A stretch of DNA of 64,000 nucleotides. Source: Minisyncoccota bacterium. Its GTDB lineage: Bacteria; Patescibacteriota; Minisyncoccia; Phycocordibacterales; UBA918. The notes beneath the pieces are model-generated. The model worked only from the letters and a program-made list of their open reading frames with translations, searched no databases and was not told where the DNA came from. Made by a program: the position numbers and the translations under genes. Below, one piece after another: positions 17,658-55,151 of the stretch (position 1 is its first letter; each line of letters begins with the position of its first letter). The stretch spans positions 6,553 to 70,552 of the forward strand of contig JALHRC010000003.1 in NCBI GenBank assembly GCA_022841645.1, in the 5' to 3' direction.

Positions 17658-17670
17658 ATGTCTGATTTAA
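17647..17670 (+). repeat. 24-nt hairpin element copy 1 (overlaps lepA stop)
   Basis: AATCAGACTAAATGTCTGATTTAA, 9-bp inverted repeat; identical copy at 17832-17855. Confidence 0.7.
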
Positions 17671-17831
17671 GACCTAGCCAGCTACTTTTGAGTGCGCGAA
17701 AAAAGTAGCGACAAGGTGTACTGGCGACCGTAGGGCGAAAAGTGACTAACGTCACTTTTGAGATCTTTTGAGATAGACTACGAGCGGAGCGAAGTAGTAT
17801 ATCCAAAAGGTATACTGGCACCTGTAAGCGG

Positions 17832-17855
17832 AATCAGACTAAATGTCTGATTTAA
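17832..17855 (+). repeat. 24-nt hairpin element copy 2
   Basis: identical to 17647-17670; each preceded by 27-nt motif AAGGTRTACTGGCRMC.GTARGCGRAA (17713-17739 and 17807-17833). Confidence 0.7.
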
Positions 17856-18037
17856 AACCTTGCCATCTACTGCGACGGATGGAAGAAGCGTTACTAGCGG
17901 CCACTAGGCCATGCCTAAAGTGAGGCCTATCACCATACTGGCGATGATAATAGTAGCCACGGTGATCCAGGTCCACTTAATAATCGCTTTTCCTCGTTTA
18001 TCAAACAGAAAATTCATACGTGGTAAGATAGTACCAC

Positions 18038-20584: not shown

Positions 20585-20616
20585 AAGCGTAGCGGCCCCC
20601 TGGGGCCGCTACGCTT
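20585..20616. repeat. palindromic hairpin containing the CGCTACGCTT 10-mer
   Basis: AAGCGTAGCGGCCCC-CT-GGGGCCGCTACGCTT; shares the recurrent CGCTACGCT block with the repeat family. Confidence 0.5.
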
Positions 20617-20710: not shown

Positions 20711-20790
20711 CGTGGACACTTCGCTACCATTAAGCAGAAACAAGAAGCCGTAGGCGACTATGTTTTGCTTATGCGGCCGCCTCAAACACT
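20711..20790 (+). repeat. degenerate copy (E) of the structured repeat family
   Basis: CGTGGACACTTCGCTACCATTAAG ... ATGTTTTGCTTATGCGGCCGCCTCA, compare with GTGGTCAC..TTCGCTACGCTCATAAG..ATGCCTGCGGCCGTCACC in copy C1. Confidence 0.35.
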
Positions 20791-26833: not shown

Positions 26834-29524
26834 TTATATTTCGCTTAATAATACATCAACCATACGGATTGCTTCCTGCGACAAGTCTGGGGCCAATAGT
26901 CCACTGTCTCTGTAGGATATGACGAGGAGACGGAAGGCAGTAAGCACATTACGCTCCTGAAGGCGAGCAAAAGTAGGCTGGAGGGACCGTCGTTGTCGAT
27001 TGTATTCACCTAATCTCAGCGTACTAACAAGTCTATTCTTTTCTAGTGTCGGCAAGGTAAGGGTATTTACGAACGCCAGCGCGACAGGATAGGTCACTAC
27101 CACCCCGTTAGTGTTGTAGTGGCGATCAGTGACGCCATTTCCATCATAATCTACCGAAAGTACCACTGGCGACAGACCGGGGGAGATCGCGGCTATTACC
27201 ACGGTGTTGGTGGCCGAGGGAACCCCCGAAAAAGTTTGCCGCTTTTTAAGTTCATTACCTTCGTGTAGTTCAATATCAAGCGTAAATGAACCTTGGGCGT
27301 AACCACGGAGCTCAAGGATGATATCAGGTATGTCGGCCGGTAATGATATGTACTGCAATTCACCAAAACGACGATAAGTAGCATTTGGGATGTCGACAGT
27401 AGAACTACTCACCTCACCTTCACTAGTTACAATCGACAAATCTAGTGGGGAGTGGAGCTGGAAAGTAAGGCGTGAAAATCCTGTAAAATCAGGTTGTGTT
27501 TTGGTGAGGTAATTGTATGTTTCATCAAAACTAGCACTATTAATAGTATTTTCTACGAAACTTATAAGGTCGACCACTTCAAGAATATTTGAATGCTTTC
27601 TGTTTGGTGCATTGTCGTCGTTATACTCAAAGAGATTCAACCACCATCTCTCGACATTATTACCAGTTAATGCAAGTGCACTCGGAGTAACTACTGTCTC
27701 GTCGCCATCGATCACTGTTCGTATTTGAGGCCGGACCTCCCATAGGTACTGAATACAAGTGCCAGAAATAAACTTCGCGCAAACTCGTACTGTAGTGTAC
27801 GTAATTTTAGCCGGTGTCGATAGTCCTACCCCAGCAATTTGGTAGACTTCTAATGTCTGCGGTGGCTGCCAAGCAGCTTGTTTTTCTTCAATTTCCCGTG
27901 CATAGGCCAAAAGCTCATCGTTTAATAGCTGCGGTGTAACCAGGTCTTGGTCTAGTGCCCGAGAACGACCACTGCTGCTACCAAGAAAACGATGGAGAGT
28001 AGATCGGTCAGTAATGTCACCGTAGTCGTCACGCCAGGCAGTGGTAGATGCTCCTGCCTCAAAGTCTATAACCGGAGTGGAAACGCTGCCACCCTGACCA
28101 TCAAAATATTCCTGATTAGGAAGTAAATGATACCCCATTGGCATGTTAGTGAGGAGCCGGCGTGACATTTCTTCATCGAGTACAAAACCGAGACCAAGAT
28201 CAGTGCCGTGAAGAAGAGATATTAGAGCTTCCGGCGTCCCCACCTGTGGTACGGCAACAAGAATCAGATTATCAATCTTGGCAAGCAGCGGATCATTCGC
28301 TTCTTCAAGTTCAATCAAAAACTGCTTTGCCACCAATCCCCCGTTTGAATGTGCCACCAGGGTTACCTTGCTTGAGAGCGATGTGGATGCTAAAGCGGCC
28401 AAGGTTTTATAGAGATGTTGCTCGCGGAGCGGCAAGTCTCGCCGCGACAATAGTTGGTCAGTGGTGGCTGCGCGCCATGATAGCAATGTGTCCGATAACT
28501 TGAGGCGCCAATCGTACGGCACAATAGCGTAATCAGCGATTATACCTTCACCTCGCCAGTCATCAAGCGAATTGACGAAGGATTTATAGTAATTAAGTGT
28601 GTAGGCTTCGTCCACGAGTCCCCGCCGCCCGACATACGTGTACAGAGGGTTAATTGATTCTCCCGCACTGCTCATCGACATTCGTGCCTGGAAACATTCG
28701 TTGCTATCTACCCAAACTTCGTGTTCTTCCCCATCGGCTGCGCAGGCGTTGGTTACCTCAAACAACCGCGACCCCATTACGCCTGGCAAAAACAGCACAC
28801 TCGACGCACCGGTCGGCGAGGGCTCTTCGGGCGCCAAAGTGAAAGTAAGCGTAGTTACCCTGTTTGGTAGGTGCCCATGAGCGTGAGCAGTAGCGACAAG
28901 CCACTCCCACCAAGGCCGTCTATGCTCGACGTTGTAAATCATCGATTCAACAACAACCATTGTGTAGGTGCCAGCAAGTAGTGGCGGTTGAGGGTGGGTG
29001 AGGCTGTAGAGGTAATCGAGTAAATCGCCATAGCGGTTGGAACTTTCTTCGTCGTCAGGAAACGGCTCACTGTCATTGTTAAGAAAGGCTTCAATGTACG
29101 GAGTAACATCAATTTCTGGCGGAAAAAAGTCGTCTGCAGCAGCGCGGTATTCGGCTTCGGTGTAGGATGGTGGATTCAGCGAAACATAGGTGTAGCTGTT
29201 ACCATCATGTCGGTACACATGGGGCTCAGCAAATGAGTAGGTGGTGTCACTATCGAACTGAAATGCTGTCGTCCCCAACGGAGGAATGAGTACCGTGGCG
29301 CCCTCTTCAACCACCGTTCCCTCAATGCGCAAAACGCCGGGCACCCCTTCATCGGTCACGCCAAACGGATTTTGGCAGTCGGTAATTGGATAGGTGAAAA
29401 TAGCATCTGCGCTAAGGTGGAATTGTGGACCTGTGATAGTGCCACACCCCTCTGCGTGGACGTACGAAACTGGTCCTACAAAAATGAGGAAGATGAGAAC
29501 CGCGACGAAGCGCCAGGTGCTCAT
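26834..29524 (-). CDS. secreted multidomain protein with lipase/esterase-like alpha/beta-hydrolase domain
   Basis: signal peptide; LFLPGVMGSRLFEV (LCAT/PGAP1-like) and nucleophile elbow LVAHSNGGLVA (AHSxG as in Bacillus LipA); 896 aa. Confidence 0.5.
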   Translation of the reverse strand: MSTWRFVAVLIFLIFVGPVSYVHAEGCGTITGPQFHLSADAIFTYPITDCQNPFGVTDEGVPGVLRIEGTVVEEGATVLIPPLGTTAFQFDSDTTYSFAEPHVYRHDGNSYTYVSLNPPSYTEAEYRAAADDFFPPEIDVTPYIEAFLNNDSEPFPDDEESSNRYGDLLDYLYSLTHPQPPLLAGTYTMVVVESMIYNVEHRRPWWEWLVATAHAHGHLPNRVTTLTFTLAPEEPSPTGASSVLFLPGVMGSRLFEVTNACAADGEEHEVWVDSNECFQARMSMSSAGESINPLYTYVGRRGLVDEAYTLNYYKSFVNSLDDWRGEGIIADYAIVPYDWRLKLSDTLLSWRAATTDQLLSRRDLPLREQHLYKTLAALASTSLSSKVTLVAHSNGGLVAKQFLIELEEANDPLLAKIDNLILVAVPQVGTPEALISLLHGTDLGLGFVLDEEMSRRLLTNMPMGYHLLPNQEYFDGQGGSVSTPVIDFEAGASTTAWRDDYGDITDRSTLHRFLGSSSGRSRALDQDLVTPQLLNDELLAYAREIEEKQAAWQPPQTLEVYQIAGVGLSTPAKITYTTVRVCAKFISGTCIQYLWEVRPQIRTVIDGDETVVTPSALALTGNNVERWWLNLFEYNDDNAPNRKHSNILEVVDLISFVENTINSASFDETYNYLTKTQPDFTGFSRLTFQLHSPLDLSIVTSEGEVSSSTVDIPNATYRRFGELQYISLPADIPDIILELRGYAQGSFTLDIELHEGNELKKRQTFSGVPSATNTVVIAAISPGLSPVVLSVDYDGNGVTDRHYNTNGVVVTYPVALAFVNTLTLPTLEKNRLVSTLRLGEYNRQRRSLQPTFARLQERNVLTAFRLLVISYRDSGLLAPDLSQEAIRMVDVLLSEI

Positions 29525-29668: not shown

Positions 29669-29883
29669 TTATGTAAGAATGATTAAGAAATCGCCCGCGC
29701 CTCCCTCAAAAGAGTGTGCGGGCTTTTCGTTGTGTGGGGTATAATTTTCACGAACAACAATGAGTACTGGAGCTTGCCAACTCTGGCAAATGTCCATGAG
29801 AGCAAAGGTGCCCTCGTACGCGGGCCCGCACCAAAACCAGGTAGAGAAGTCCGGTGCAGGACTTGACCCAGAATCACGGATTT
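29669..29883 (-). pseudogene. decayed fragment of an EEP (exonuclease III-like) gene paralogous to 44434-45162
   Basis: minus-strand translation ...APDFSTWFWCGPAYEGTFALMDICQSWQ... aligns with APEQLAVPLSKLGYQTTFAPMDIRQSGQ of the EEP protein; nucleotide block 29778-29812 about 85% identical to 44980-45015; no start codon. Confidence 0.4.
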
Positions 29884-29990
29884 TTATTTCGTCTGCGACT
29901 CATAAAAATGCTCGTGTTCTTGGTCGGCCCCTCGCGTAGGTTGCTCCTTAGTGGTCGCAACCTACATGCGCCGGGGCTTCAAGTCCTGAC
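29851..29990 (+). repeat. repeat module A1: partial tRNA-Val 3'-end copy + AGAATCACGG + covarying hairpin
   Basis: CCGGTGCAGGACTTGACCC (29851-29869) repeats tRNA-Val 3' part; hairpin GTAGGTTGC...GCAACCTAC 29937-29966; homologous to module B1 at 45212-45350. Confidence 0.6.
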
Positions 29991-30044
29991 ACAACGCCCG
30001 CAGGGGCGTTGTTCACCACGCACCGTCGTCGCTATGCTCCTCAA

Positions 30045-30140
30045 GTGGGGTCAAGTTTCTAATTCGCTACGCTTATAAGAACTTGCTCCCCTGGCTCGCC
30101 TGTTTTCTGCTGTAGGGACGGAGCAGAAAACATGGCTCCG
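30045..30140 (+). repeat. repeat module A2 of structured repeat family
   Basis: GTGGGGTCAAGTTTCTAATTCGCTACGCTTATAAG...hairpin GTTTTCTGC..GCAGAAAAC (30102-30131)...CATGGCTCCGCCTCGCAC; aligns with C1/C2/D. Confidence 0.65.
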
Positions 30141-30182
30141 CCTCGCACTCGAGCCCGCACGCAAAACTGTTTGCGTGCTATA

Positions 30183-30220
30183 CCAAAAAACAATACCCAC
30201 TAGGGGGTATTGTTTTTTGG
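30183..30220. terminator. terminator hairpin 3' of tRNA-Val
   Basis: CCAAAAAACAATACCC-ACTAG-GGGGTATTGTTTTTTGG. Confidence 0.65.
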
Positions 30221-30230
30221 TATGCTCAAG

Positions 30231-30303
30231 TGCGCGGTGCAGGACTTGAACCTACGACCCCCACAATGTCAATGTGGTGCTCTACCAGCTGAGCTAACCG
30301 CGC
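30231..30303 (-). tRNA. tRNA-Val (anticodon GAC)
   Basis: reverse complement: acceptor GCGCGGT/ACCGCGC, D-arm GCTC-AGCTGGTA-GAGC, anticodon loop TTGACAT, T-arm GTAGG-TTCAAGT-CCTGC. Confidence 0.9.
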
Positions 30304-30479
30304 GTGAGTCGAAAGATGGTACCACGCGCCACAAAAATGTGAAATGCAGGTTTTGCTCGGGGGGCTTTTTTGAAGGTAAACCGCTGTTTTTTGGTGGCGG
30401 CGTAACCGTTCCGGGCTAAATGAGAATTAGTGAATTGTTCCAAAATTGCACCGGGTACTCTAGCGGGGAGGTGGTTTGT

Positions 30480-31648
30480 AGCCACGAGTAGGCAACTTTC
30501 ATGGCTTCAAATAAGTCTTATTTACAAACTGTGCATGAGAGCTAATGCACAAGTTCACAAACATTTGAGACTCCTTAGCAATAAGGAAACCATGAGAATA
30601 CGGAGCACGTTGAGAGGAGTGAAGGGGTTTGTGGTGGCGTGGGAGCGTCTGGTACGGTTCCGCTATATGATTAGCGACAAAGCCAAGGAACGGTGCCGGA
30701 TCCTCGCCTTCTGGGAACGACATGGTCTTGACGCCACGAGAGAAGCCTTCGGTGTCTCGCGGGCCACACTCTTCCGCTGGCAACAAGCGCTCCAAAAGAG
30801 ACAAGGGAAACTAGAAGGACTGAATGCCAAGAGCACGGCTCCGAGGCGAAGGCGACAGCGCACCATTCCTGACGCGGTCCGGAACCTCATCTTGAGCGAA
30901 CGCCTCATGGATCCTCGCCTCGGCAAAGACAAGCTGGCTCAGTTAATCAAAGACGACGGCCTCGGCACGTATAGTGCCTCGACCGTGGGGCGGATGCTTA
31001 AGGATCTGCAGCGACAGGGGGTACTCCCTGATCCACGACCGCTGTCCTTTCATGGGAAGACCGGCAGACACCACGAGAAGCACCAGTCATACAAGCCCAA
31101 GCAGCGCAGCACGCACCACGAAGGTGCCCTGGCGAAAGCCGATACGGTGGTGCGGTTTATCGATGGTCTAAAACGATACATCGTCACCGGTATCGATACT
31201 GAGACCAAGTTCGCGTTTGCCTATGCCTATCCGAGCCACTCGTCAGCGGCCGCCGCCGACTTCATGCGTCTCTTTAAAGCGGTGGCACCCGTCTCCATCA
31301 CCCACGTGCAGACTGACAACGGTTCGGAGTTCGCCTGTCACTTCGAAGCCACCTTGGGTGCATATGGGATAACTCACTTCCATACGTACCCGCGCTCTCC
31401 TAAACAGAATGCCGAGATCGAACGCTTTAACCGCACCCTCTGGGAAGCCTTTGCTCGGTACCGCAAGACCACCCTGGCTCATGACCTCTCGGCCTTTAAT
31501 CGAGAGCTGATGGAGTGGCTCCTCTGGTACAACACGAGGCGACCCCACCAGACGCTTGGCCAAGTATCACCGCTAGGGTACATTGTGTCGACGTTATCAG
31601 AGGTGGAGTCTCAAAGGTGCTGGACGAGTACAAGCTATTGACAAAACA
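30480..31648 (+). mobile_element. IS481-like insertion sequence (right end defined, left end uncertain)
   Basis: right terminus TACAAGCTATTGACAAAACA (31629-31648) resembles IS481 terminal repeat ...TACAACCTATTGACAGTTCACA (from memory); no matching left inverted repeat found. Confidence 0.4.
30592..31641 (+). CDS. IS481-family DDE transposase
   Basis: N-terminal HTH (GVSRATLFRWQQ), rve core with YNTRRPHQTLG; ATG 30592 with AAGGA RBS (ORF track extends to 30430); stop lies within a terminal repeat-like sequence. Confidence 0.8.
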   Translation: MRIRSTLRGVKGFVVAWERLVRFRYMISDKAKERCRILAFWERHGLDATREAFGVSRATLFRWQQALQKRQGKLEGLNAKSTAPRRRRQRTIPDAVRNLILSERLMDPRLGKDKLAQLIKDDGLGTYSASTVGRMLKDLQRQGVLPDPRPLSFHGKTGRHHEKHQSYKPKQRSTHHEGALAKADTVVRFIDGLKRYIVTGIDTETKFAFAYAYPSHSSAAAADFMRLFKAVAPVSITHVQTDNGSEFACHFEATLGAYGITHFHTYPRSPKQNAEIERFNRTLWEAFARYRKTTLAHDLSAFNRELMEWLLWYNTRRPHQTLGQVSPLGYIVSTLSEVESQRCWTSTSY

Positions 31649-39519: not shown

Positions 39520-41652
39520 GTGGACTACACTTTCATGTTCCCGCGCACTCTCTTGAGGCTCTCATACTGGCGTCTACTCGTAGTAGCTGTCGTCATGGCA
39601 ATAATTGCTGTTGCGTGGTGGACAGACGTTTTTGCCATCCAATCGGTGCCAGATAATGCGGCAACTGCTTACGACGCCGAGCTTTCGTTTGCAGCACATT
39701 CACCGCTTGGAAGTGACGGTGGTTCTGTTATCCCCGCGTCGTGTGATTCTGGTGTACTGCACTGGCCTGGCGATCTCGACGCCTGTCCAAGTGGCTGGGT
39801 GACGTATTGTTCAGGTGCGCTTCCTGGTGATCCTAACGGTCAGAACTGGCAGTGGTGGCGCTACTACGACAGTGCCGGGGGAAGAATTCATCGCTTCGTC
39901 AGTGAGGGCTATGGTACGTGCACTCCCGACGCTCCGTCGTCAATCAGCTACGAATGTTCACCTGATGGTCTTACTGCCACTACCACGTGGACCGCTTCCT
40001 ACGCAGCTGAAGCCTACTATCCGCGCATACAAGGCATCACTGTAGCGCAGTGTAGTGCCATGGGGTGGAATTGGTGGACCGATGGTGCAGGCACCAACAT
40101 TTGTTACAAAGATGCTTGGAATGCAACCTCAATGTTTACCTACGTTGGTAGTGGTTTTAATCGAGTGTATGTCCACTCTGGTCCGCCAGTCAATTGGAAC
40201 AAATTTGCTGATACTGGTTGGTTCCAGTGCCCAACAGCAACAGCCCTTCCTGCTCCCACACCCACCTACAGTTGCTCTGGTGATGGTACGCAGGTAACGG
40301 TGAATTGGAATGAGGTAGCTGGTGCGACCGAATACCATCCCCGCCTTTTGGGTATTACAGAAGCGCAGTGCAATGCTATCAGTGGCGGTGTTGGGTGGTT
40401 CTTTGATGCCAGTTCTAATTCCTGTGCATACAACAATCTTCCTGCAAGTTGGGGTACGCCACCGCGACAGCTTACCTTCAATCTTCGCCCCGGGGGGTAT
40501 CAGCACGCTTTTTGGGTACATGCAAGTAGGGATGCGATTCCCGAGACTACTAGTCCAGCTGGATCAACTGGATACTTCTCCTGCCTTCCCGCCCCCACCA
40601 ACCTAAGTGGTTCGTGTAGTGCCGATGGTACCGAAGGAACTATCACCTGGACAGCACCCGCGGGCTACACTACTTTCTACACACGCGCTAGTGCCGTGGC
40701 TCAGGGTAGGAATGACCTCGTTGGTGTACCCAACACAACAGATGATCCGTGGGATGATAATGTGGTTGGCACCTCGAAGTCATTTACTACCGATCCTGGC
40801 GAAACCTACTACGTCTGGATACACACTAAAAATACTACTAATGGAACGTGGAGTGATCCTGCAAGAACGCAGTTCACCTGCCCCGATTCGCTTGCCGGAA
40901 CACCTCCTCCGTCACCGCGGTTAAACTCCGCTATCTGTAGACCTGATCCGAGCGATCCGTCAGTTGGTCTGGTCACGCTTAGTTGGGAACGCGAAGCACG
41001 TGCTACCAGTTACGATGTACGGGCGCGCTGGATCAATCCTTCAACGGAAACCAACCCAGCAGAAGCTTGCCCTAATGGTAAGTACAGTACGCAGGAGCGG
41101 TGGTGTTGGAATTCGGTTGGACAAAGTTTCACTACGGGCTACTCTCAAACCAATGACACAGCGAGTTTCTCTTTCAGTGGCTTGCCGCTTGATAATAATA
41201 AGAATTATACGTGGTGGGTACACTCTAGAAACGCTGCCGGGTCAAGTAACCCTCCATCACACGCGAATAGCAATATAACGTTTACCTGTGCCGTGGGTAC
41301 TCCACCGGAGGCTGGTGACCCGCCAGCGGTCCTTGCCCTCACTGCTACTCCCAGCCTTATTCTTCCCGGACGCACGACTACCCTCAACTATCGCATAGAG
41401 GCACCGTATGACATGGACTGTACGATAACCGGCGGTGACAGCAGTTATCCTGAAATTAACTACCGGCCAACGCCGTCCCTACCAGTAACTGGTGCTGGTA
41501 TTCCGTATCTAGAGGACACTATTTCTTCAGCACCGATAGTTGCCACCACTAACTTTGTACTTAGTTGCGATCCGGTACCTAATATAAACCCGCCTGGTGA
41601 ACGAGAAGCCAGTGTCCGTGTGGAGATCGTACCAACATTTGAAGAACGGTAG
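39520..41652 (+). CDS. secreted/membrane-anchored repeat protein, paralog family member 1 (710 aa)
   Basis: signal anchor; CPSGWVTYCSG...NWQWWRY module; repeated FN3-like segments; shares RWxxxSTxxxPxxxCPNGKYSTQERWC block with 43109-44428. Confidence 0.45.
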   Translation: MDYTFMFPRTLLRLSYWRLLVVAVVMAIIAVAWWTDVFAIQSVPDNAATAYDAELSFAAHSPLGSDGGSVIPASCDSGVLHWPGDLDACPSGWVTYCSGALPGDPNGQNWQWWRYYDSAGGRIHRFVSEGYGTCTPDAPSSISYECSPDGLTATTTWTASYAAEAYYPRIQGITVAQCSAMGWNWWTDGAGTNICYKDAWNATSMFTYVGSGFNRVYVHSGPPVNWNKFADTGWFQCPTATALPAPTPTYSCSGDGTQVTVNWNEVAGATEYHPRLLGITEAQCNAISGGVGWFFDASSNSCAYNNLPASWGTPPRQLTFNLRPGGYQHAFWVHASRDAIPETTSPAGSTGYFSCLPAPTNLSGSCSADGTEGTITWTAPAGYTTFYTRASAVAQGRNDLVGVPNTTDDPWDDNVVGTSKSFTTDPGETYYVWIHTKNTTNGTWSDPARTQFTCPDSLAGTPPPSPRLNSAICRPDPSDPSVGLVTLSWEREARATSYDVRARWINPSTETNPAEACPNGKYSTQERWCWNSVGQSFTTGYSQTNDTASFSFSGLPLDNNKNYTWWVHSRNAAGSSNPPSHANSNITFTCAVGTPPEAGDPPAVLALTATPSLILPGRTTTLNYRIEAPYDMDCTITGGDSSYPEINYRPTPSLPVTGAGIPYLEDTISSAPIVATTNFVLSCDPVPNINPPGEREASVRVEIVPTFEER

Positions 41653-43108: not shown

Positions 43109-44428
43109 ATGTTTCGTTCTTTTTTAAGCTCATGGTCACTTACTGCTGGATTGTCGGTGCTGAGTGTCCCCGTAGCGATGGTGGCCTGGTTTGTGGTGGT
43201 GCCACTCCTTCTAGGACAAGCCTTTACACCCACCACAGAGGCTCAGGGTGGGGTATGTTTTCCAAGAACGGCTGTTGCTCCTTATGCTGCTTGGTACGGC
43301 GGCTTCTACTGCGCGCCCGGCTACACACTTGTCTATCACTACTACCAGCCTGGTGGTCGGGAAAATAGCAACTGGTATGAGTGTGTCAGTGAGCAGTGTG
43401 CTAACCCAAAACCACCAGGGCCCGAGGTGGTCTGGACTGAATATTGTACTGGTGAAGGAAACACCAATCCGACCGTCGATTGGCAATGGTGGCGCTATTC
43501 AAATGAGGTGTCACCACGCTACGAGCGGGTGCGTGCCGGTGATGGTACCTGCACCCCGCCCCCTCCGGCCGAAATAGTGTGGACCCAATATTGTACTCGC
43601 GACCTGCAGTCTGACCCTACCCGCAATTGGCAGTGGTGGCGTGTTTCCAACGAAACACCAGCGCGTCATGAATTTGTGCGTGCTGGTGATGGCCTGTGCG
43701 CACCGCCGACGAGCGTTACCCTCAACCCACCCCGTCTCCTCTCAGCGACGTGTGAAGTCGACCCTGCTAACCCTACGACGGGAAGAGTAGAGCTGCGCTG
43801 GGAGGAGGTGTCGGGTGCGACGGGCTATGATCTGCGAGTACGTTGGGACGACGCCTCAACCCGCGACGCCCCAGTTGGTGAACGTTGTCCGAATGGTAAG
43901 TACAGTACGCAGGAGCGCTGGTGCTTTAACAATCAGCCAGGAAATGGTGGGTCATTCGTTCTTACCGGTCTTCCCCTCAGTACGGAAAAGCGCTACGTCT
44001 GGTGGCTACACTCACGCACTGGTAACAACACGAGCGTTCAGACCCATTCGACGTTGGACACCTCGTTTAAGTGCTTACCTGACGACACCATAAATCCAGA
44101 TGATAGTGACCCTCTTCCAGTAGCGCCAGTAGTCACTATGGGTGCTCGTTCGTGGCTGGTCCAAGCGGGTACACCGGCTCAACTCTATTGGAGTGTGGTG
44201 GCCACCTATCCTGTACGTTGTGAGCTGACGGGAGGTACCACACGCCGTACTTTCTCTTATCTAGCAGGTGGTGGCACGGTGTCTGTTGATGCCCCCTTTG
44301 TTACTGATCCGGTTGTTGGCACGACCCGTTTTGGTTTGGTGTGTCAGCCTGATCCGTCTATAGACGGCGTAGCTTCAGGTAATGCGGTAACGGTGATAGA
44401 TGTCACAGCAACGGTTGACCCGTTGTAG
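43109..44428 (+). CDS. secreted repeat protein, paralog family member 4 (439 aa)
   Basis: YCAPGYTLVYHYYQPGGRENSNWYECVSEQC module; duplicated NWQWWR repeats; CPNGKYSTQERWCF block shared with member 1. Confidence 0.45.
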   Translation: MFRSFLSSWSLTAGLSVLSVPVAMVAWFVVVPLLLGQAFTPTTEAQGGVCFPRTAVAPYAAWYGGFYCAPGYTLVYHYYQPGGRENSNWYECVSEQCANPKPPGPEVVWTEYCTGEGNTNPTVDWQWWRYSNEVSPRYERVRAGDGTCTPPPPAEIVWTQYCTRDLQSDPTRNWQWWRVSNETPARHEFVRAGDGLCAPPTSVTLNPPRLLSATCEVDPANPTTGRVELRWEEVSGATGYDLRVRWDDASTRDAPVGERCPNGKYSTQERWCFNNQPGNGGSFVLTGLPLSTEKRYVWWLHSRTGNNTSVQTHSTLDTSFKCLPDDTINPDDSDPLPVAPVVTMGARSWLVQAGTPAQLYWSVVATYPVRCELTGGTTRRTFSYLAGGGTVSVDAPFVTDPVVGTTRFGLVCQPDPSIDGVASGNAVTVIDVTATVDPL

Positions 44429-44433
44429 CAACG

Positions 44434-45162
44434 TTAGATCTGCTTTGTTAGGTGGGCGATAACCGCGGCATGATCGCTGATCCCAAAGCGTAAGGTGACG
44501 TTCTTGGCACTATAGGGTCCCTTGGTAAATAGGTAGTCCACCATGAATGAGTCAAAGAGGAATTTTAGCTCTGGGTTTTTACCGTGGCGGTGGAGCGAGG
44601 CATCAAGGCTGCTTTTATACTGTGCTGGTATAGTGTCGGTGTAGTGCTCCGTGAGGTTTGTGTAGAGGGGATTGTGCTGGCGGGGAATGTTAAAGTCGCC
44701 ACAGAGGATGTGTGGTGGTAGGGGAGCTAGTGTCTCTAAAAGCGCTGCCATGTTCGCCTGCTGTTCGGGACTGGCGATCTCACCTCGTGGCGACCAGGTG
44801 AAATGCGTGGTAGCGATAGTGTAGTCGCCGACGCTCGCGATAATGACTGCCCGCGCCACGGTCCCTGGCACGTTGGTGACATCAATCGGAACAATCGCCT
44901 CGGTGGGGCGGTGGTAGTACTCACTCCGTGCAGAGGAAGGGAGCCGACTGGCAAGTAATATGCCTTCGGTAAAGGCCTCTTGACCACTCTGGCGAATGTC
45001 CATAGGAGCGAAGGTGGTCTGGTATCCAAGTTTACTAAGCGGCACTGCCAATTGCTCGGGGGCCTCCTGAAGGCAGAGAACGTCCGCCCTCTCGGTCTCT
45101 AGAAAGGGAAGTACTTTATCGAGGTGAGTGATGCCTTCAACATTGAGCGAGATGAGTTTCAT
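44434..45162 (-). CDS. endonuclease/exonuclease/phosphatase (EEP) family protein, exonuclease III-like
   Basis: MKLISLNVEG...LCLQE N-terminus and C-terminal SDH motif typical of EEP fold. Confidence 0.7.
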   Translation of the reverse strand: MKLISLNVEGITHLDKVLPFLETERADVLCLQEAPEQLAVPLSKLGYQTTFAPMDIRQSGQEAFTEGILLASRLPSSARSEYYHRPTEAIVPIDVTNVPGTVARAVIIASVGDYTIATTHFTWSPRGEIASPEQQANMAALLETLAPLPPHILCGDFNIPRQHNPLYTNLTEHYTDTIPAQYKSSLDASLHRHGKNPELKFLFDSFMVDYLFTKGPYSAKNVTLRFGISDHAAVIAHLTKQI

Positions 45163-45211
45163 TGGAGCACTGTAGCAAAAAAATACTGGCTAGCCAATTA
45201 TGGAAACGCAA

Positions 45212-45350
45212 GGAAGCGGAGAGATTTGACCCAGAATCGCGGCTCTTTTACTTCGCTACGCTTGTAAAAGTGACTCGCGTTCTCGGTCGACACCTCGCGT
45301 GTTTTACTCTTTGACGTCGCAAAACACAAGCTCCGGTGCTTCAAATCCCT
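45212..45350 (+). repeat. repeat module B1: partial tRNA-Ser 3'-end copy + AGAATCGCGG + covarying hairpin
   Basis: GGAAGCGGAGAGATTTGACCC (45212-45232) repeats tRNA-Ser 3' part; TTCGCTACGCTTGTAAAAG 45252-45270; hairpin GTGTTTTAC...GCAAAACAC 45299-45327; T-loop-like GGTGCTTCAAATCCCT 45335-45350. Confidence 0.6.
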
Positions 45351-45387
45351 ACGTACCGTGCGCAGGCACGGTACTCCGCTTCCGCGA

Positions 45388-45421
45388 ACAAAATATGCGT
45401 CCACAAGGGACGCTATTTTGT
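45388..45421. terminator. terminator hairpin 3' of tRNA-Ser, nested in a 13-bp inverted repeat with the tRNA 3' end
   Basis: ACAAAATATGCGTCC-ACAA-GGGACGCTATTTTGT; outer CTCCGCTTCCGCG (45375-45387) complements CGCGGAAGCGGAG (45426-45438). Confidence 0.6.
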
Positions 45422-49698: not shown

Positions 49699-50985
49699 GT
49701 GACTACAAGCTGGTACTATAGAGATATGAAAACAGCCACGCGGATTAGGGCATGGAATCGGGTGAGTTATCTCTTCCTCGCGCTTTTTCTTTCTCTGGCG
49801 ATAGGATTAGTGTTCTTTCACACTGATTTAGAACTCAACCAACTACAGCGCATTGGAGGGGGTGTGATAGCAATTATACTCATGCTGGGATGGGTGTTGG
49901 TACAGCGGAAGCGCGATCGTTGGCTGACTGCCACGCTGGAGCGCATCCAACTTTCTGATGAAGAGTCATTTTACTTGCTTTTCAGTAACAGCCCAGTAGC
50001 ACATATTATTCTTGATCGATCTGGCAAGATTGCTAATTTTAATCCAGCGACAGCCCAGCTCTTAAAGACGAAACTACATGCACTCAGTGGTCGTTCGTTC
50101 GTGACACTGTGCGCTCCTGAATTTGATACGTCTATCTTAGCTCAAAAACTACGCGCTGGAATCACTATTAATGAACTGGAGCTTCCTCTGATCACTGATG
50201 AAGGGATGCTCGTGTGGACACTCTTGTCGGTGAGTTCATTGTTGTGGGAAGAAAAGCTGTTAATTACGATGGTTGATATTACCGATCAGAAAAAAGTAGA
50301 CACTGCCAAGTCAGAATTTGTGGCGCTTGCCACCCACCAGTTGCGTACCCCAATTGCCGCTATCCGCTACGCGACCGAGCTGCTGGGCCGACGGCTCGCC
50401 GATGGAGCAACTGAACGGAATGCTGCGTACATTGATAAGATCGACCGCAATGTGGTGCGTATGCTCTCACTCATTGACGACTTTCTCAATGTTTCAAAAC
50501 TTGAAATGGGTACCTTTGCCACCGAGCCAAGCCGTCTTAACATGAGTGAATTTGTGACGGGTGTACTCGATGAACTTGGTGATCGTATGCTAAAGCAGCG
50601 TATCACTGCAACTCGAAGTGATACGCCAACTGATCTTTGGTTTATCACCGACCCACGTCTCCTTAACATTATTCTCACTAATCTCATTTCCAACGCGGTT
50701 AAATACACTCCCGAAGGCGGCAAGATCCACGTAGCGTTCACTGGTACCAGCTCTTCGTTGCGATTTGAAATCAGTGATTCAGGTATCGGTATTCCGGCCG
50801 CCGAAATTCCCCAGCTGTTTAGTAAATTCTTTAGGGCAAGTAACGCTCGAACGATTCAGACCGAAGGAACTGGCCTGGGGCTATACATTGTGGCGCAGGC
50901 CTTACAAAAGTTAGGTGGCACGATTGAGGTTGACTCGCGTGTTGGTGAGGGGACCAGTTTTGTGGTCACCATTGCGTCTTTGTGA
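49699..50985 (+). CDS. sensor histidine kinase with PAS-like domain
   Basis: H-box HQLRTPIAAIRYATELL, N/G boxes ...NLISNAVKYT, GTGLGLYIV; two N-terminal TM. Confidence 0.8.
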   Translation: MTTSWYYRDMKTATRIRAWNRVSYLFLALFLSLAIGLVFFHTDLELNQLQRIGGGVIAIILMLGWVLVQRKRDRWLTATLERIQLSDEESFYLLFSNSPVAHIILDRSGKIANFNPATAQLLKTKLHALSGRSFVTLCAPEFDTSILAQKLRAGITINELELPLITDEGMLVWTLLSVSSLLWEEKLLITMVDITDQKKVDTAKSEFVALATHQLRTPIAAIRYATELLGRRLADGATERNAAYIDKIDRNVVRMLSLIDDFLNVSKLEMGTFATEPSRLNMSEFVTGVLDELGDRMLKQRITATRSDTPTDLWFITDPRLLNIILTNLISNAVKYTPEGGKIHVAFTGTSSSLRFEISDSGIGIPAAEIPQLFSKFFRASNARTIQTEGTGLGLYIVAQALQKLGGTIEVDSRVGEGTSFVVTIASL

Positions 50986-51044
50986 GTCGAGTAAGTGGAA
51001 TAGGGGCGTTCATACCAGTGTCGCAAGCCAGCCTGGTTATGTGT

Positions 51045-51147
51045 GTGGTCACGAGTTACTAATTCGCTACGCTCATAAGTACTCTCGACCCCGGCTCGGC
51101 CGTTTTAGCTTTAGGAAAAAGCTGAAAACATGCCTGCGGCCGTCACC
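51045..51147 (+). repeat. structured repeat family copy C1
   Basis: GTGGTCACGAGTTACTAATTCGCTACGCTCATAAGTACTCTCGACCCCGGCTCGGCC-hairpin GTTTTAGCTTT..AAAGCTGAAAAC-ATGCCTGCGGCCGTCACC. Confidence 0.7.
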
Positions 51148-51176
51148 GCGACACGTCAGCGACATTAGTCGCTCTT

Positions 51177-51296
51177 GTGGTCACCAGTCACTAAGCGTAT
51201 TTGTTCACTACGTTCCAAATCCGCTAAGTGCTGTCGACCCCGCCTCGCGGTTTCCGCCGCTTTGACGGCGACGGAAACATCGCTGCGGCCGTCACA
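51177..51296 (+). repeat. structured repeat family copy C2 (tandem to C1)
   Basis: GTGGTCACCAGTCACTAAGCG...CCGCTAAGTGCTGTCGACCCCGCCTCGCG-hairpin GTTTCCGCCGC..GCGACGGAAAC-ATCGCTGCGGCCGTCACA. Confidence 0.7.
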
Positions 51297-51325
51297 CGAG
51301 CCGAAACTGAAAGCTTTCAGTTTCT

Positions 51326-51370
51326 AAAACGAAACAGCCTTCTTTGGATGAAGAAGGCGGTTTCGTTTTT
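51326..51370. terminator. terminator hairpin 3' of tRNA-Glu
   Basis: AAAACGAAACAGCCTTCTT-TGGATG-AAGAAGGCGGTTTCGTTTTT; additional hairpin GAAACTGAAAGCTTTCAGTTTC 51303-51324. Confidence 0.6.
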
Positions 51371-51376
51371 GTCGTG

Positions 51377-51448
51377 TGACCCCACCGGGAGTCGAACCCG
51401 GCTTTAAAGCTTGAAAAGCTTTCGTCCTAACCGATAGACGATGGGGCC
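51377..51448 (-). tRNA. tRNA-Glu (anticodon TTC)
   Basis: reverse complement: acceptor GGCCCCA/TGGGGTC, anticodon stem AAAGC/GCTTT loop TTTTCAA, T-arm CCGGG-TTCGACT-CCCGG. Confidence 0.8.
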
Positions 51449-54828: not shown

Positions 54829-54855
54829 GTACGTGTGGTGCGTGGTTTAAGAGTT

Positions 54856-55003
54856 GGCACCGGTCACAAGTCACTAACTATAATTGGCCGCTACGCTCCA
54901 ATTCTAGTAAGTGCTCGCGACCCGTGAAAAGCAATATTGAATTGCTTTTCACCGCGGCCCGTTTGTCCCCAAAGACAAACGGGCAACGCTGCGGCCGGCA
55001 GTG
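54856..55003 (+). repeat. structured repeat family copy D (not tRNA-linked; 3' of ftsZ)
   Basis: CGGTCACAAGTCACTAACTATAATTGGCCGCTACGCTCCAATTCTAGTAAGTGCTCGCGACCC-hairpin GTGAAAAGCAAT..ATTGCTTTTCAC-second hairpin GCCCGTTTGTC..GACAAACGGGC-AACGCTGCGGCCGGCAGTG. Confidence 0.65.
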
Positions 55004-55151
55004 CCTGCTATTTCAGCTTGCTTCGCCGCAGAAATGCAGGTACTGCCTCTTACAGAGGCAGTCCACTCATTGGTCTTTTTGCTTCGTGGGAAGCTTGCAA
55101 AAATACTCAATGAGTCCGCCGTGCCCTCGCTGCGTCGCTCACTGCGCTCAA

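What the first reader, a model, noticed from the sequence alone, without database searches (positions are those of the whole stretch)
51045..51296. Same-orientation family of about 100-150 nt structured non-coding repeats (4 clear + up to 3 degenerate copies) with a covarying hairpin
Copies at 30045-30140 (A2), 51045-51147 (C1), 51177-51296 (C2) and 54856-55003 (D) share ordered blocks GTGGTCAC.AGT.ACTAA .. (T)TCGCTACGCT(C/T) .. TAAGT.CT.TCGACCCC .. (hairpin) .. AT.C.TGCGGCCGTCAC. More diverged copies lie at 45212-45350 (B1), 29851-29990 (A1) and 20711-20790 (E). The central hairpin sits at the same position but its stem sequence differs by compensatory changes: GTTTTCTGC/GCAGAAAAC (A2), GTTTTAGCTTT/AAAGCTGAAAAC (C1), GTTTCCGCCG/CGGCGACGGAAAC (C2), GTGAAAAGCAA/TTGCTTTTCAC (D), GTGTTTTAC/GCAAAACAC (B1) and GTAGGTTGC/GCAACCTAC (A1). 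That pattern implies selection on RNA or DNA secondary structure rather than on sequence. All copies lie on the + strand in intergenic regions immediately 3' of minus-strand genes: tRNA-Val, tRNA-Ser, tRNA-Glu, ftsZ and valS. The 10-mer CGCTACGCTT alone occurs four times in 64 kb against about 0.1 expected by chance. This could be a REP/MITE-like element, a 3'-UTR or tRNA-trailer structured RNA, or a small-RNA gene family. I am not aware of a described family with this consensus.
Basis: seen in the sequence. Interest (0 to 1): 0.8.

Follow-up and report, generated by a model that had tools for sequence, protein, structure and literature searches.

The report
tRNA-tail hairpin elements of CPR bacteria
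The repeats are real members of a widespread, apparently undescribed family of folded 130-200-base elements that sit just after tRNA genes in Patescibacteria (CPR) and carry sense and antisense copies of that tRNA's 3' end; they look like small integrating elements, though a tRNA-trailer RNA is not excluded.

Summary
Six of the seven reported copies are real. A covariance model built only from other genomes finds exactly C1, A2, C2, B1, A1 and D, all on the minus strand; copy E is not found. The strand that folds is the minus strand, which is the sense strand of the neighbouring tRNAs, not the plus strand.

The family is widespread in Patescibacteria. Across 64 loci plus the window there are 96 copies, and 28 of 31 base pairs show compensatory changes. 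Of the 96, 58 lie 18-100 nt after a same-strand tRNA gene, beyond a terminator-like hairpin.

Each copy has conserved hairpins (hp, P1, P2). P2 is capped by GAGC-GNA-GCGA. These hairpins are interleaved with an antisense copy (B') and a direct copy (B) of the 3' end of that tRNA, starting in the T-loop. Tandem arrays, decaying distal B copies and near-identical cores beside different tRNAs in different classes point to small integrating or recombining elements. No enzyme was identified, and a trailer RNA remains a live rival.

The cap also occurs in plasmid pC194 beside its replication nick site, in ssDNA phages, and in other bacterial phyla. No Rfam family matches.

The parts
30230..30303 (-). 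tRNA-Val(GAC), the gene that A2 and A1 follow
   Evidence: ARAGORN; Rfam tRNA model, 68.8 bits
30180..30223 (-). X: A-tract / hairpin / T-tract palindrome directly after tRNA-Val (terminator-like by eye)
   Evidence: Sequence. Not flagged by the simple terminator scan.
30157..30178 (-). hp: conserved branch hairpin GCACGCAAAC-AGT-TTTGCGTGC, family consensus GCAAGCAAACUGCUUUGCUUGC
30026..30162 (-). Copy A2. B' is CTCGAGTG (30146-30153), P1 is 30093-30142, P2 with cap AAGCGTAGCGAA is 30047-30091, and B is CACTTGAG..CAT (30034-30047). B copies the tRNA-Val end plus trailer CAC|TTGAGCAT.
   Evidence: R1 85.4 bits; coordinates; sequence
29844..30023 (-). Copy A1. B'-acceptor part is GTGCGTGGTG (30014-30023), hp is 29992-30011, B'-T part is TCAGGACTTGAA (29978-29989), P1 is 29928-29976, P2 with cap GAGTC-GCA-GACGA is 29865-29925, and B is TCAAGTCCTGCACCG (29852-29866). 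B is a 15-nt exact copy of the tRNA-Val 3' end starting in the T-loop.
   Evidence: R1 18.7-24.2 bits
45426..45513 (-). tRNA-Ser(CGA), the gene that B1 follows
45388..45421 (-). X: bidirectional terminator-like hairpin after tRNA-Ser
   Evidence: Terminator scan hit 45413-45397 on both strands
45207..45386 (-). Copy B1. B'-acceptor part is CGCGGAAGCGGAG (45374-45386), a perfect 13-nt antisense of the tRNA-Ser end. hp is 45354-45373, B'-T part is TAGGGATTTGAA (45340-45351), P1 is 45291-45338, P2 with cap AAGCGTAGCGAA is 45228-45288, and B is TCAAATCTCTCCGCTTCC (45212-45229).
   Evidence: R1 20.8 bits
51376..51448 (-). tRNA-Glu(TTC), the gene that C2 and C1 follow
51326..51370 (-). X: bidirectional terminator-like hairpin after tRNA-Glu
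   Evidence: Terminator scan hit 51358-51337 on both strands
51303..51324 (-). hp: branch hairpin GAAACTGAAAGCTTTCAGTTTC
51163..51307 (-). Copy C2. B' is CTCGTGTGAC (51291-51300), antisense of the tRNA-Glu end plus trailer GTCACACGA. P1 is 51242-51289. P2 (51179-51239) is lengthened and carries cap GAAC-GTA-GTGA.
   Evidence: R1 39.8 bits; z -4.74
51026..51160 (-). Copy C1. P1 is 51093-51141; P2 with the canonical cap TTATGAGCGTAGCGAATTA is 51047-51090.
   Evidence: R1 88.8 bits; z -3.15 on minus versus -1.41 on plus
54841..55010 (-). Copy D, after the ftsZ terminator and not next to a tRNA. P0 is GGCAC/GTGCC (54989-55005 with 54856-54861). The variable hairpin is 54957-54984, an extra hairpin is 54924-54952, and P2 with cap GAGC-GTA-GCGG is 54862-54922. 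Upstream lies the inverted repeat CAGTACCTGCAT .. ATAGCAGGCACTG.
   Evidence: R1 17.9 bits
20711..20790 (-). Reported copy E. Not confirmed; at most a degenerate remnant (GGTAGCGAAG, GCGGCCGCAT).
   Evidence: No R1 hit at E<=10; sequence

Best explanation
These are members of a Patescibacteria-wide family of small (about 130-200 nt), strand-specific, non-coding insertion elements that settle at the 3' end of tRNA genes.

On the sense strand of the tRNA the order is: tRNA, then a terminator-like hairpin X, then B', hp, P1, P2 and B.
- B' is an antisense copy of the last ~10-25 nt of that tRNA. It is often split by the conserved branch hairpin hp.
- P1 has a conserved GGA/GA internal loop and a variable hairpin.
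- P2 is a long hairpin capped by GAGC-GNA-GCGA.
- B is a direct copy of the tRNA 3' end that begins inside the T-loop.

Shown here: the anatomy, the covariation, the link to tRNA genes, the tRNA-derived arms, the tandem arrays and the sharing of modules between taxa.

Inferred, not shown: the unit (B-X-B'-M, where M is hp+P1+P2) enters by recombination between its own copy of the tRNA 3' end and the T-loop or 3' end of the gene. This would rebuild the tRNA and push the old 3' end downstream. The single-stranded fold, in which B' pairs with B to imitate the double-stranded target, would be the recombination substrate. This is the logic of integron attC sites and of the CTX-phage attP hairpin. 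The recombinase is unknown and acts in trans. The capped hairpins are the part shared with rolling-circle replicons.
For: 1. Real family with selected structure.
- R1, built without any window sequence, finds six copies on one strand only.
- On 33 independently aligned copies, 87.1% of cells pair against 71.2% when shuffled and 30-41% when the partner is slid. 21 of 31 pairs have changes on both sides.
- On 96 copies, 87.6% pair against 66.7% shuffled, and 28 of 31 pairs have changes on both sides.

2. Target association.
- 58 of 96 copies have a same-strand tRNA ending 18-100 nt upstream (median 51). 12 more lie 121-450 nt downstream of a tRNA in arrays. Only 2 lie near an opposite-strand tRNA.
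- 68 of 120 tRNAs in these loci are followed by a copy, and any isotype can be.

3. Direct repeats typical of integration at tRNA genes.
- The copy ends with up to 19-20 nt identical to the tRNA 3' end, starting at T-loop position -19/-20.
- In L106, L146 and L054 the repeat runs on into the trailer, for 37 to ~59 nt.

4. Accretion.
- Tandem arrays occur in which the distal B copy is the most decayed (L053, L052).
- In L146 an ORF-bearing ~650-nt island lies between a second and a third copy of the tRNA-Phe end.

5. Signs of movement or recombination.
- Element cores are 92-95% identical between Saccharibacteria and Nomura-, Yonath- or Paceibacteria MAGs, beside different tRNAs (Leu vs His, Arg vs Leu). 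The median cross-class identity is 43%, and copies within the window are 19-73% alike.
- In L053 the proximal copy carries a B' that fits a different tRNA end.
- A1 and B1 share the core (76% over 126 nt) and a remnant of the same downstream gene, but have Val- and Ser-specific arms.

6. Hints that single-stranded DNA is the relevant form.
- The 12-nt cap is identical to the loop of a hairpin 11 nt 5' of the pC194 nick site, on the nicked strand.
- The cap lies in the intergenic region just upstream of the rep gene in a gokushovirus, and in small Rep-encoding replicons, on the coding strand.
- The caps are GNA triloops such as GCGAAGC and GCGTAGC, which from my own knowledge (Hirao et al.) are unusually stable in DNA.
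- The elements lie beyond terminator-like hairpins, and no sigma-70-like promoter lies in front of them.
Against: - No recombinase, Rep or transposase is associated. The only nearby Y1 transposase (L137) is not linked in general: 2 of 80 related TnpA loci carry the element.
- No empty site or presence/absence polymorphism was obtained.
- B' differs for each tRNA, and a simple hopping element does not explain that. It needs templated correction or separate lineages.
- B' fits the real tRNA end better than the downstream B copy (-30.1 vs -21.6 kcal/mol; 26 vs 4 loci). So the P0 'target mimic' is often imperfect.
- Copies within one genome are old and diverged yet keep their structure, as a functional RNA would.
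- More than half of the sampled tRNAs carry a copy. This suits a host function too, although the sample is biased towards loci that contain the element.
- G.U exceeds A.C clearly only in P1 (19:0) and P0 (59:26), not in P2 once one conserved G.U column is left out (29:49).
- Taxon labels of MAGs may be wrong.
Confidence: 0.45

Rival explanations
1. It is a structured tRNA-trailer RNA. By read-through of X, or after RNase Z cleavage, the trailer would fold into the three-way junction and act at the RNA level, for example in processing, stability or quality control of the upstream tRNA. B' would switch between pairing with the 3' third of the tRNA and pairing with the decoy copy B. P1 and P2 would be a binding platform.
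For: - The orientation is always sense relative to the tRNA: 70 of 96 copies follow a same-strand tRNA, against 2 near an opposite-strand one.
- In viral contigs the cap hairpins are co-oriented with flanking genes (18:2 and 19:2).
- In Robertmurraya the cap hairpins lie inside a tRNA operon spacer.
- Compensatory changes and G.U pairs are present.
- B' stays near-perfect against the real tRNA while the B copy decays.
- Diverged copies within one genome keep the fold.
- One cap variant has a GTAA (GNRA) tetraloop.
Against: - The elements lie after bidirectional terminator-like hairpins, with no promoter-like site in between.
- A ~45-bp-arm near-perfect palindrome (tRNA end, X, B') looks templated at the DNA level rather than selected in RNA.
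- Triloop caps are poor RNA hairpin caps (own knowledge).
- Tandem arrays with decaying B copies, and near-identical cores beside different tRNAs in different classes, are not expected for a vertically inherited RNA.
- There are no expression data.
Confidence: 0.3
2. They are by-products of DNA-level palindrome growth and local duplication at tRNA terminators, through template switching at quasi-palindromes. On this view they have no function and no mobility of their own.
For: - The tRNA end, X and B' form one long near-perfect palindrome.
- Perfect hairpins of unrelated sequence sit at the same position.
- Template switching can copy a change from one arm of a hairpin to the other without any selection (own knowledge).
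Against: - It does not explain the conserved, non-palindromic sequence modules: the cap, the GGA/GA loop, the GAAAG junction and the hp consensus. These are shared across classes and phyla.
- It does not explain copies at non-tRNA sites (D).
- It does not explain 92-95% identical cores in distant taxa.
Confidence: 0.1
3. They are single-strand replication signals (sso-like or priming sites), left by or serving rolling-circle replicons. The cap loop would act like the CS-6 element of ssoA origins.
For: - The cap contains TAGCGA, which matches the CS-6 consensus TAGCG(A/T) (PMC10378824).
- An identical 12-nt loop lies next to the pC194 double-strand origin, on the displaced strand.
- The cap is present in a gokushovirus and in Rep-encoding small replicons, on the coding strand.
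Against: - The pC194 cap hairpin is not its palA/ssoA. That origin, with RSB and its own CS-6, lies about 1.1 kb away.
- There is no RSB, and no wider similarity to pT181 or pC194 palA.
- The whole-element model matches only the cap in plasmid and viral loci.
- A chromosome with about one copy per tRNA gene has no obvious need for such origins.
- The folding strand is the one inferred to be the leading-strand template, from positive GC skew on the plus strand. That strand is not the one exposed at replication forks.
Confidence: 0.05
4. One reading: a family of small RNAs or 3'-UTR structures on the plus strand.
For: C1 and C2 lie downstream of a plus-strand histidine kinase gene. The plus strand also folds moderately well for A2 and C2.
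Against: - R1 gives no plus-strand hit.
- The minus strand folds better in every copy.
- In 70 of 96 copies elsewhere, the folding strand is the sense strand of an upstream tRNA.
- The GNA triloop and the G.U pairs exist only on the minus strand.
Confidence: 0.02

Closest known systems
Folded single-strand recombination sites: integron attC sites and the CTX-phage attP(+) hairpin (own knowledge)
   Same: One strand folds into an imperfect hairpin whose two arms rebuild a double-strand-like copy of the target. Structure is conserved more than sequence. Orientation is fixed and insertions are serial.
   Different: - The target here is a tRNA 3' end or T-loop, and the arms differ for each tRNA.
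- There are no RYYYAAC/GTTRRRY core sites, no integrase nearby and no ORF-attC cassette array.
- The 'loop' is a conserved three-way junction.
Genomic islands and cis-mobilizable elements integrated at tRNA genes, with crossover in the T-loop (Williams 2002 classification; own knowledge)
   Same: A direct repeat of the tRNA 3' end starts in the T-loop. The intact tRNA lies on the proximal side. Elements accrete in tandem. In L146 an island lies between repeats.
   Different: The unit is only ~150-250 nt, encodes nothing, and carries an extra antisense copy of the tRNA end plus conserved single-strand hairpins.
REP/BIME extragenic palindromes mobilised by RAYT, and IS200/IS605-derived MITEs (PATEs)
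   Same: - They are multi-copy, strand-specific, extragenic hairpins that often lie after genes.
- A conserved short motif (here including GTAG) sits next to or within a variable stem.
- Pairing between a guide and a flanking site resembles GL/CL and GR/CR pairing in IS608.
   Different: - These elements are much larger and branched.
- They are tied to tRNA ends.
- There is no Y1 transposase in the window, and no cis link to the one family found.
The hairpin AAAGGATTT-GAGCGTAGCGAA-AAATCCTTT beside the pC194 double-strand origin, and ssoA/palA origins
   Same: The 12-nt cap is identical. It contains the CS-6 hexamer. It lies on the strand that becomes single-stranded.
   Different: In pC194 it is a simple hairpin whose role is unknown to me, and it is distinct from palA. 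The CPR elements add P0, P1, hp and the tRNA-derived arms.
tRNA 3'-trailer RNAs and tRNA-like structures (3'ETS sponges, mascRNA-type processing mimics)
   Same: It lies directly after tRNAs on the same strand. The P0 stem repeats acceptor and T-stem sequence.
   Different: The Rfam tRNA model does not match it. It lies after a terminator-like hairpin. The antisense arm would unfold the tRNA rather than mimic it.

Membership tests
Any Rfam 15 family | Match to a curated covariance model | tested here: not met
   Only the five tRNAs pass the gathering threshold. At E<=10, over 50980-51380 and 29800-30235, the matches were weak (E 0.0006 to 10), mostly to hairpin-shaped families such as plastid psbA 3'UTR and miRNA precursors and mostly on the terminator-like hairpins. 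None is a credible family match.
tRNA / tRNA-like (RF00005) | Cloverleaf recognised by the tRNA model | tested here: not met
   No RF00005 hit on A1 or A2 at E<=10. ARAGORN finds only the five true tRNAs.
tRNA-integrated island (attL/attR) | Direct repeat of the tRNA 3' end flanking the insert, with the intact tRNA on one side | tested here: met
   In the window: TCAAGTCCTGCACCG (A1) and TCAAATCTCTCCGCTTCC (B1). Elsewhere: up to 20 nt, starting at T-loop position -19/-20, among 43 tRNA-element pairs.
tRNA-integrated island (attL/attR) | An integrase encoded within the element | tested here: not met
   The inserts are 150-400 nt and non-coding. The ORFs flanking the window copies are a lipase, a DDE transposase (on the far side of tRNA-Val), a histidine kinase, a P-type ATPase, Exo_endo_phos and FtsZ.
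Integron attC | R''/R' core sites RYYYAAC / GTTRRRY at the ends of the hairpin | tested here: not met
   The arms end in ..YTYGAA(CC) and (GGTT)CRAAYCC, which is T-loop sequence with C at core position 4.
Integron attC | An array of ORF-attC cassettes next to intI | tested here: not met
   The copies follow tRNAs and housekeeping genes. There is no cassette array in the window. Presence of intI was not searched genome-wide.
ssoA (palA) single-strand origin | CS-6 TAGCG(A/T) in an apical loop | tested here: met
   The cap GAGCGTAGCGAA contains TAGCGA.
ssoA (palA) single-strand origin | The RSB sequence, and residence on a rolling-circle replicon | tested here: not met
   There is no TTTATGCCGAGAAAA-like RSB. 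pT181 and pC194 palA share nothing beyond the hexamer. The setting here is chromosomal.
IS200/IS605-derived MITE (PATE) / REP-RAYT | A Y1 HUH transposase of the same family in the genome, linked to the repeats | tested here: not met
The only clear hits are L137 and L161. Of 80 loci with relatives of that TnpA, 2 carry the element.
IS200/IS605-derived MITE (PATE) / REP-RAYT | Strand-specific subterminal hairpins, and no target-site duplication of fixed length | tested here: inconclusive
   The hairpins are strand-specific. The repeats vary from 12 to ~59 nt and are target-derived.
Classical MITE | Element-encoded terminal inverted repeats plus a short target-site duplication of fixed length | tested here: not met
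   The inverted arms (B'/B) are copies of the local tRNA end and differ at each locus. The direct repeat varies in length.
Intrinsic terminator | A G+C-rich hairpin followed by a T-run | tested here: not met
   Only the X hairpins in front of the elements fit. P1 and P2 are not followed by T-runs.

The most novel reading that the evidence does not exclude
This could be a new class of target-templated hairpin element. A conserved single-strand scaffold (hp, P1, P2) would carry, or acquire at each insertion, both an antisense and a sense copy of the 3' end of the gene it lands behind. The scaffold would then either (a) guide site-specific integration into tRNA T-loops through a nucleic-acid 'target mimic', without an element-encoded enzyme, or (b) act as a 3'-located switch that controls maturation of the upstream tRNA.
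Probability: 0.2. Interest if true: 0.9.

Novelty: new variant of a known kind. Interest (0 to 1): 0.75.

Why it matters
- CPR/Patescibacteria make up a large share of bacterial diversity, have tiny genomes and few known mobile elements or regulatory RNAs. An element that follows roughly half of the tRNA genes in the sampled loci, with clear covariation and no Rfam entry, is a substantial unannotated feature of these genomes.
- Its architecture interleaves conserved hairpins with sense and antisense copies of the target. I know of no described element built this way.
- It offers a testable model for nucleic-acid-guided integration at tRNA genes, or for control of tRNA maturation from the 3' side.
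- The GAGC-GNA-GCGA cap links it to rolling-circle plasmids and ssDNA phages. That also raises the question of what the long-known but unexplained pC194 hairpin does.
- Practically, the elements break short-read assemblies at tRNA loci, and annotation pipelines should mask or annotate them.

Tried and rejected
- **Rfam:** the gathering-threshold and E-value searches gave nothing relevant.
- **ssoA identity:** the CS-6 hexamer is present, but the palA origins of pT181 and pC194 are otherwise unrelated. The pC194 cap hairpin is a separate structure.
- **IS200/IS605 in cis:** a TnpA lies between tRNA-Leu and an element in L137. Among 80 loci with relatives of that TnpA, only 2 have the element, so this was rejected as a general association.
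- **Whole element in phages or plasmids:** R1 matches only the cap there.
- **tRNA adjacency of the viral cap hairpins:** none was found.
- **Orthologous loci for presence/absence.** All four attempts gave no empty site:
  - The metagenome scan with the 896-aa ORF found no relatives.
  - The nearest homologue (67% identity) is not on record.
  - The histidine kinase is not on record.
  - Contigs carrying the Exo_endo_phos gene all end inside the tRNA-Ser/B1 region.
- **Cargo:** Exo_endo_phos is not generally next to elements. The L146 island ORF has no Pfam match.
- **Structural motifs considered by eye and dropped:** hammerhead-type or other ribozyme cores, a kink-turn, the 11-nt tetraloop receptor, similarity to 5S rRNA, box C/D or H/ACA guides, bridge RNA and TIGR arrays. 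None has the defining features or the matching neighbours.
- **Literature:** four searches found no description of this family.
Full report
**1. Observation**

The repeat finder pairs A2 with C1 (77% over 62 nt) and C2 with D (76% over 62 nt), and links A2, B1 and C1 through the TTCGCTACGCT block.

I built a covariance model, R1, from 33 copies taken from other genomes (alignment A2; model). No window sequence went into it. Searched over the window with filters off, it returns six hits with E<=2e-4, all on the minus strand:
- C1, 88.8 bits
- A2, 85.4 bits
- C2, 39.8 bits
- B1, 20.8 bits
- A1, 18.7 bits
- D, 17.9 bits

The next hit has E=1.6. Copy E is not recovered.

The 10-mer CGCTACGCTT occurs 5 times against 0.17 expected. 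Only two of these occurrences belong to the family.

**2. Which strand folds**

The minus strand folds more stably in every copy. It also gives better z-scores, minus versus plus:
- C1: -3.15 / -1.41
- C2: -4.74 / -3.77
- A2: -3.40 / -3.35
- B1: -2.87 / -1.05

The minus strand is the sense strand of tRNA-Val, tRNA-Ser and tRNA-Glu. On that strand the elements lie downstream of those genes.

**3. Anatomy on the minus strand**

- **P0** is a closing stem.
- **P1** consists of helix P1a, an internal loop (GGA opposite GA), helix P1b, a WU bulge, and a hairpin of variable sequence.
- **P2** is a long irregular hairpin with a conserved cap, YUUAYGAGC-GUA-GCGAARUAR. The cap is two sheared-type G.A positions, two G-C pairs and a GNA triloop.
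- Cap variants keep this shape: GAAC-GUA-GUGA in C2 and GAGUC-GCA-GACGA in A1.
- Many copies elsewhere have a second cap of the same type in P1, such as GAGC-GAA-GCGAG or GUCGC-GAA-GCGAC.
- Upstream lies **hp**, a conserved branch hairpin with consensus GCAAGCAAACUGCUUUGCUUGC.

**4. The family outside the window**

An exact-pattern scan of one genome per species returned more than 117 loci, against about 17 expected by chance. Patescibacteria dominate: Paceibacteria, Saccharibacteria, and Yonath-, Kaiser- and Nomurabacteria.

R1 finds 96 copies in 64 such loci plus the window.

Covariation is strong.
- On the MAFFT alignment of 33 copies, 87.1% of cells pair. The shuffled control gives 71.2% and the slid controls 30-41%. 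21 of 31 pairs have changes on both sides.
- On the 96 model-aligned copies, 87.6% pair against 66.7% shuffled. 28 of 31 pairs have changes on both sides, in 555 cells against 156. This alignment is fitted to the model and so leans towards the structure.

G.U pairs outnumber A.C pairs 150 to 77 overall, and 19 to 0 in P1.

No Rfam family matches. Four literature searches found no description of the family.

**5. Link to tRNA genes**

- 58 of the 96 copies have a tRNA gene on the same strand ending 18-100 nt upstream (median 51).
- 12 more follow a tRNA at 121-450 nt, in tandem arrays.
- 6 lie at a locus edge, so nothing can be said.
- 20 have no tRNA upstream.
- Only 2 lie near an opposite-strand tRNA.
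- 68 of the 120 tRNAs in these loci are followed by a copy, and any isotype can be.

This sample is biased, because every locus was chosen for containing the element. In the window, three of the five tRNAs carry copies. The other two abut coding sequence.

**6. The arms are copies of the tRNA 3' end**

Directly after P2 comes **B**, a direct copy of the tRNA 3' end. It begins inside the T-loop at position -19/-20. In L152 it is CGAATCCCTCCGGGAGCAC, matching 19 of 19.

In front of P1 lies **B'**, an antisense copy of the same region. It is often split by hp at the boundary between the acceptor stem and the T-stem.

In the window:
- A1 has GTGCGTGGTG, hp, then TCAGGACTTGAA on the 5' side, and TCAAGTCCTGCACCG on the 3' side (tRNA-Val).
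- B1 has CGCGGAAGCGGAG (a perfect 13-nt antisense), hp, then TAGGGATTTGAA, and TCAAATCTCTCCGCTTCC on the 3' side (tRNA-Ser).
- A2 and C2 have shorter arms, antisense to the last 3-5 nt of the tRNA plus its trailer.

B' includes the antisense of the T-loop itself. At the U.G pair of the tRNA-Val T-stem it also matches the complement of the 3' strand. It is therefore a true inverted copy, not the tRNA's own 5' strands.

B' fits the real tRNA end better than the downstream copy B. Mean duplex energy is -30.1 against -21.6 kcal/mol, with 26 loci favouring the tRNA end and 4 favouring B. The 3' third of the tRNA, the trailer with the terminator-like hairpin X, and B' together form one long near-perfect palindrome. 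B is partly decayed.

The X hairpins after tRNA-Ser and tRNA-Glu score as bidirectional terminators. No promoter-like site lies between X and the elements.

Copy D follows the ftsZ terminator, not a tRNA. It shows the same logic with local sequence: CAGTACCTGCAT .. ATAGCAGGCACTG.

**7. Signs of insertion and exchange**

- In L106, L146 and L054 the direct repeat runs beyond the tRNA into the trailer, for 37 to ~59 nt.
- Arrays of two to four units follow a single tRNA in L052, L053, L110 and L136, and in the window at tRNA-Val and tRNA-Glu. In L053 the middle B copy is perfect and the distal one is decayed. The proximal unit there carries a B' that fits a different tRNA end.
- In L146 an ORF-bearing island of ~650 nt lies between the second copy and a third, degenerate copy of the tRNA-Phe end.
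- Element cores (P1 through P2) are 92-95% identical between MAGs labelled Saccharibacteria and Nomura-, Yonath- or Paceibacteria, in some cases next to different tRNAs. The median cross-class identity is 43%, and the copies within the window are 19-73% alike.
- A1 and B1 share the core (76% over 126 nt). They also share a short remnant of the same downstream Exo_endo_phos-type gene (84% over 38 nt). Their arms, however, are Val-specific and Ser-specific.

**8. The cap module is much more widespread than the element**

The same 17-21 nt cap on unrelated stems occurs in several settings:
- 43 viral contigs, including a gokushovirus (L015), where it lies in the intergenic region just upstream of rep;
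- small Rep-encoding replicons (L001, L022, L025);
- a set of 90-160-kb phage contigs;
- a phage contig with four copies (L007).

In all the cases I examined, the folding strand is the coding strand.

In genomes the cap also occurs in:
- different multi-copy repeats of Alphaproteobacteria;
- long hairpins of Bacteroidales;
- a site directly after tRNA-Gln in Rhizomicrobium;
- a tRNA operon spacer of Robertmurraya.

A full-text search for the 12-mer led to plasmid pC194. There the hairpin AAAGGATTT-GAGCGTAGCGAA-AAATCCTTT lies 11 nt 5' of the nick site CTTGATA, on the nicked strand.

The cap contains the CS-6 hexamer of ssoA origins. However, the palA origin of pC194, with RSB and its own CS-6, is a different structure about 1.1 kb away. 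The palA of pT181 shows no wider similarity either.

R1 matches only the cap in viral and plasmid loci. The full architecture is therefore specific to CPR.

From my own knowledge, C-GNA-G triloops such as d(GCGAAGC) are unusually stable in DNA and less so in RNA.

**9. Mechanism**

Shown:
- a structured, strand-specific family;
- its placement at tRNA ends;
- tRNA-derived sense and antisense arms;
- tandem accretion;
- sharing of modules across taxa.

Inferred: the unit B-X-B'-(hp, P1, P2) integrates by recombination within the tRNA 3' end or T-loop. This rebuilds the tRNA and displaces the old end. The single-strand fold is the form recognised, in the manner of attC sites or the CTX-phage attP hairpin. 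I give this 0.45.

What remains unexplained under this model:
- how B' comes to match each tRNA, for which templated correction within the palindrome is a candidate;
- which enzyme acts.

The main rival, at 0.3, is a trailer RNA in which B' switches between the tRNA and the decoy copy B. The two readings do not exclude each other, because REP elements are both mobile DNA and RNA structures.

Lesser rivals:
- neutral palindrome growth (0.1);
- sso-like replication signals (0.05);

**10. Dead ends**

- A Y1 transposase sits inside one such locus (L137). Only 2 of 80 loci with its relatives carry the element.
- All attempts to obtain orthologous empty sites failed.

**11. Verdict**

The family appears undescribed and has an unusual, target-derived architecture. 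Its mode of action is still open.

Noticed in passing
window 30430-31641 (+): A 403-aa ORF with HTH_32, rve and rve_3 domains (a DDE transposase of IS481/IS3 type) lies directly upstream of tRNA-Val, on the other strand.
   Followed up: partly
window 20585-20616: A perfect palindrome, AAGCGTAGCGGCCCC-CTG-GGGGCCGCTACGCTT, carries the GCGTAGCG cap sequence in its stem. It lies between the class I aaRS gene and a PrsW-protease gene, next to the unconfirmed copy E.
   Followed up: no
window 26834-29524 (-): The 896-aa ORF after A1 is an LCAT-like lipase/acyltransferase (PF02450), not an aaRS. Its source is an NCBI contig of 72,977 nt. The closest homologue is 67% identical, and further ones (~41%) include Kaiserbacteria.
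   Followed up: partly
window 29773-29810 versus 44979-45016: Downstream of A1 lies a 38-nt remnant, 84% identical (TFALMDICQSWQ against TFAPMDIRQSGQ), of the Exo_endo_phos gene that follows B1. The two loci therefore share more than the element itself.
   Followed up: partly
window 17647-17686 and 17832-17871: A 40-nt direct repeat, 93% identical (AATCAGACTAAATGTCTGATTTAA..), unrelated to the family.
   Followed up: no
window 41062-41105 and 43880-43923: A 44-nt repeat, 89% identical, lies inside two different plus-strand ORFs (39520-41652 and 43109-44428).
   Followed up: no
window, whole: GC skew is positive on the plus strand in 13 of 16 4-kb bins. Yet four of the five tRNA genes and all six elements are on the minus strand, so they would be head-on to replication if the skew is read in the usual way.
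   Followed up: no
L051, L057, L061, L063, L066, L068, L070, L074-L076, L095, L116, L128, L134, L141, L142, L151, L153, L159: Alphaproteobacteria (Sphingomonadales, Bauldia and others) carry a different multi-copy repeat. A CCCTCTCCC..GGGAGAGGG hairpin is followed by a hairpin with the same cap and then GGTGAGGGG..CCCCTCACC. Several copies occur per genome.
   Followed up: no
L067, L107, L124, L127, L129, L133, L138, L140: Rhizobiales-type loci have GGCCTAGCTTTT-cap-GAAAAGCTGGCC, and in several of them (for example L067, L124, L133, L138) this is followed by a second hairpin capped GAGCGAAGCGAG. The two cap types recur together outside CPR.
   Followed up: no
L117 (Robertmurraya kyonggiensis), about 1170-1260 on the folding strand: Two cap hairpins (GAGCGTAGCGAAG and GAGCTTAGCGAG) lie in the spacer between tRNA-Phe and tRNA-Gly, inside a nine-tRNA operon of a cultured Bacillaceae strain.
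   Followed up: no
L007 (IMG/VR contig, 16.5 kb): Four related intergenic hairpins (ACGCTAGCACCTCTTA..AGCGTAGCGA..TTAGAGGTGCTGCGC) all lie on one strand of a phage contig.
   Followed up: partly
L137 3300-5700 (Paceibacterota MAG): Three tRNAs each have an element within 2.3 kb. An IS200/IS605-type TnpA ORF (3801-4250) sits between tRNA-Leu and its element, flanked by two similar terminator-like hairpins. Cap variants here are GAGC-GTAA-GCGA (a tetraloop) and GAGTC-GAA-GACGA.
   Followed up: partly
L245-L249 (Logan assemblies of SRR28154523-29): All short-read contigs that carry the exact Exo_endo_phos protein end 223-293 nt upstream of the gene, inside the B1/tRNA-Ser region. This suggests that these repeats break assemblies.
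   Followed up: no
window 55100-55150 (-), end of ftsZ: The 3' end of ftsZ contains GAGCGCAGTGAGCGACGCAGCGAGG, a run of cap-like GAGCG-N-GCGAG motifs inside coding sequence.
   Followed up: no
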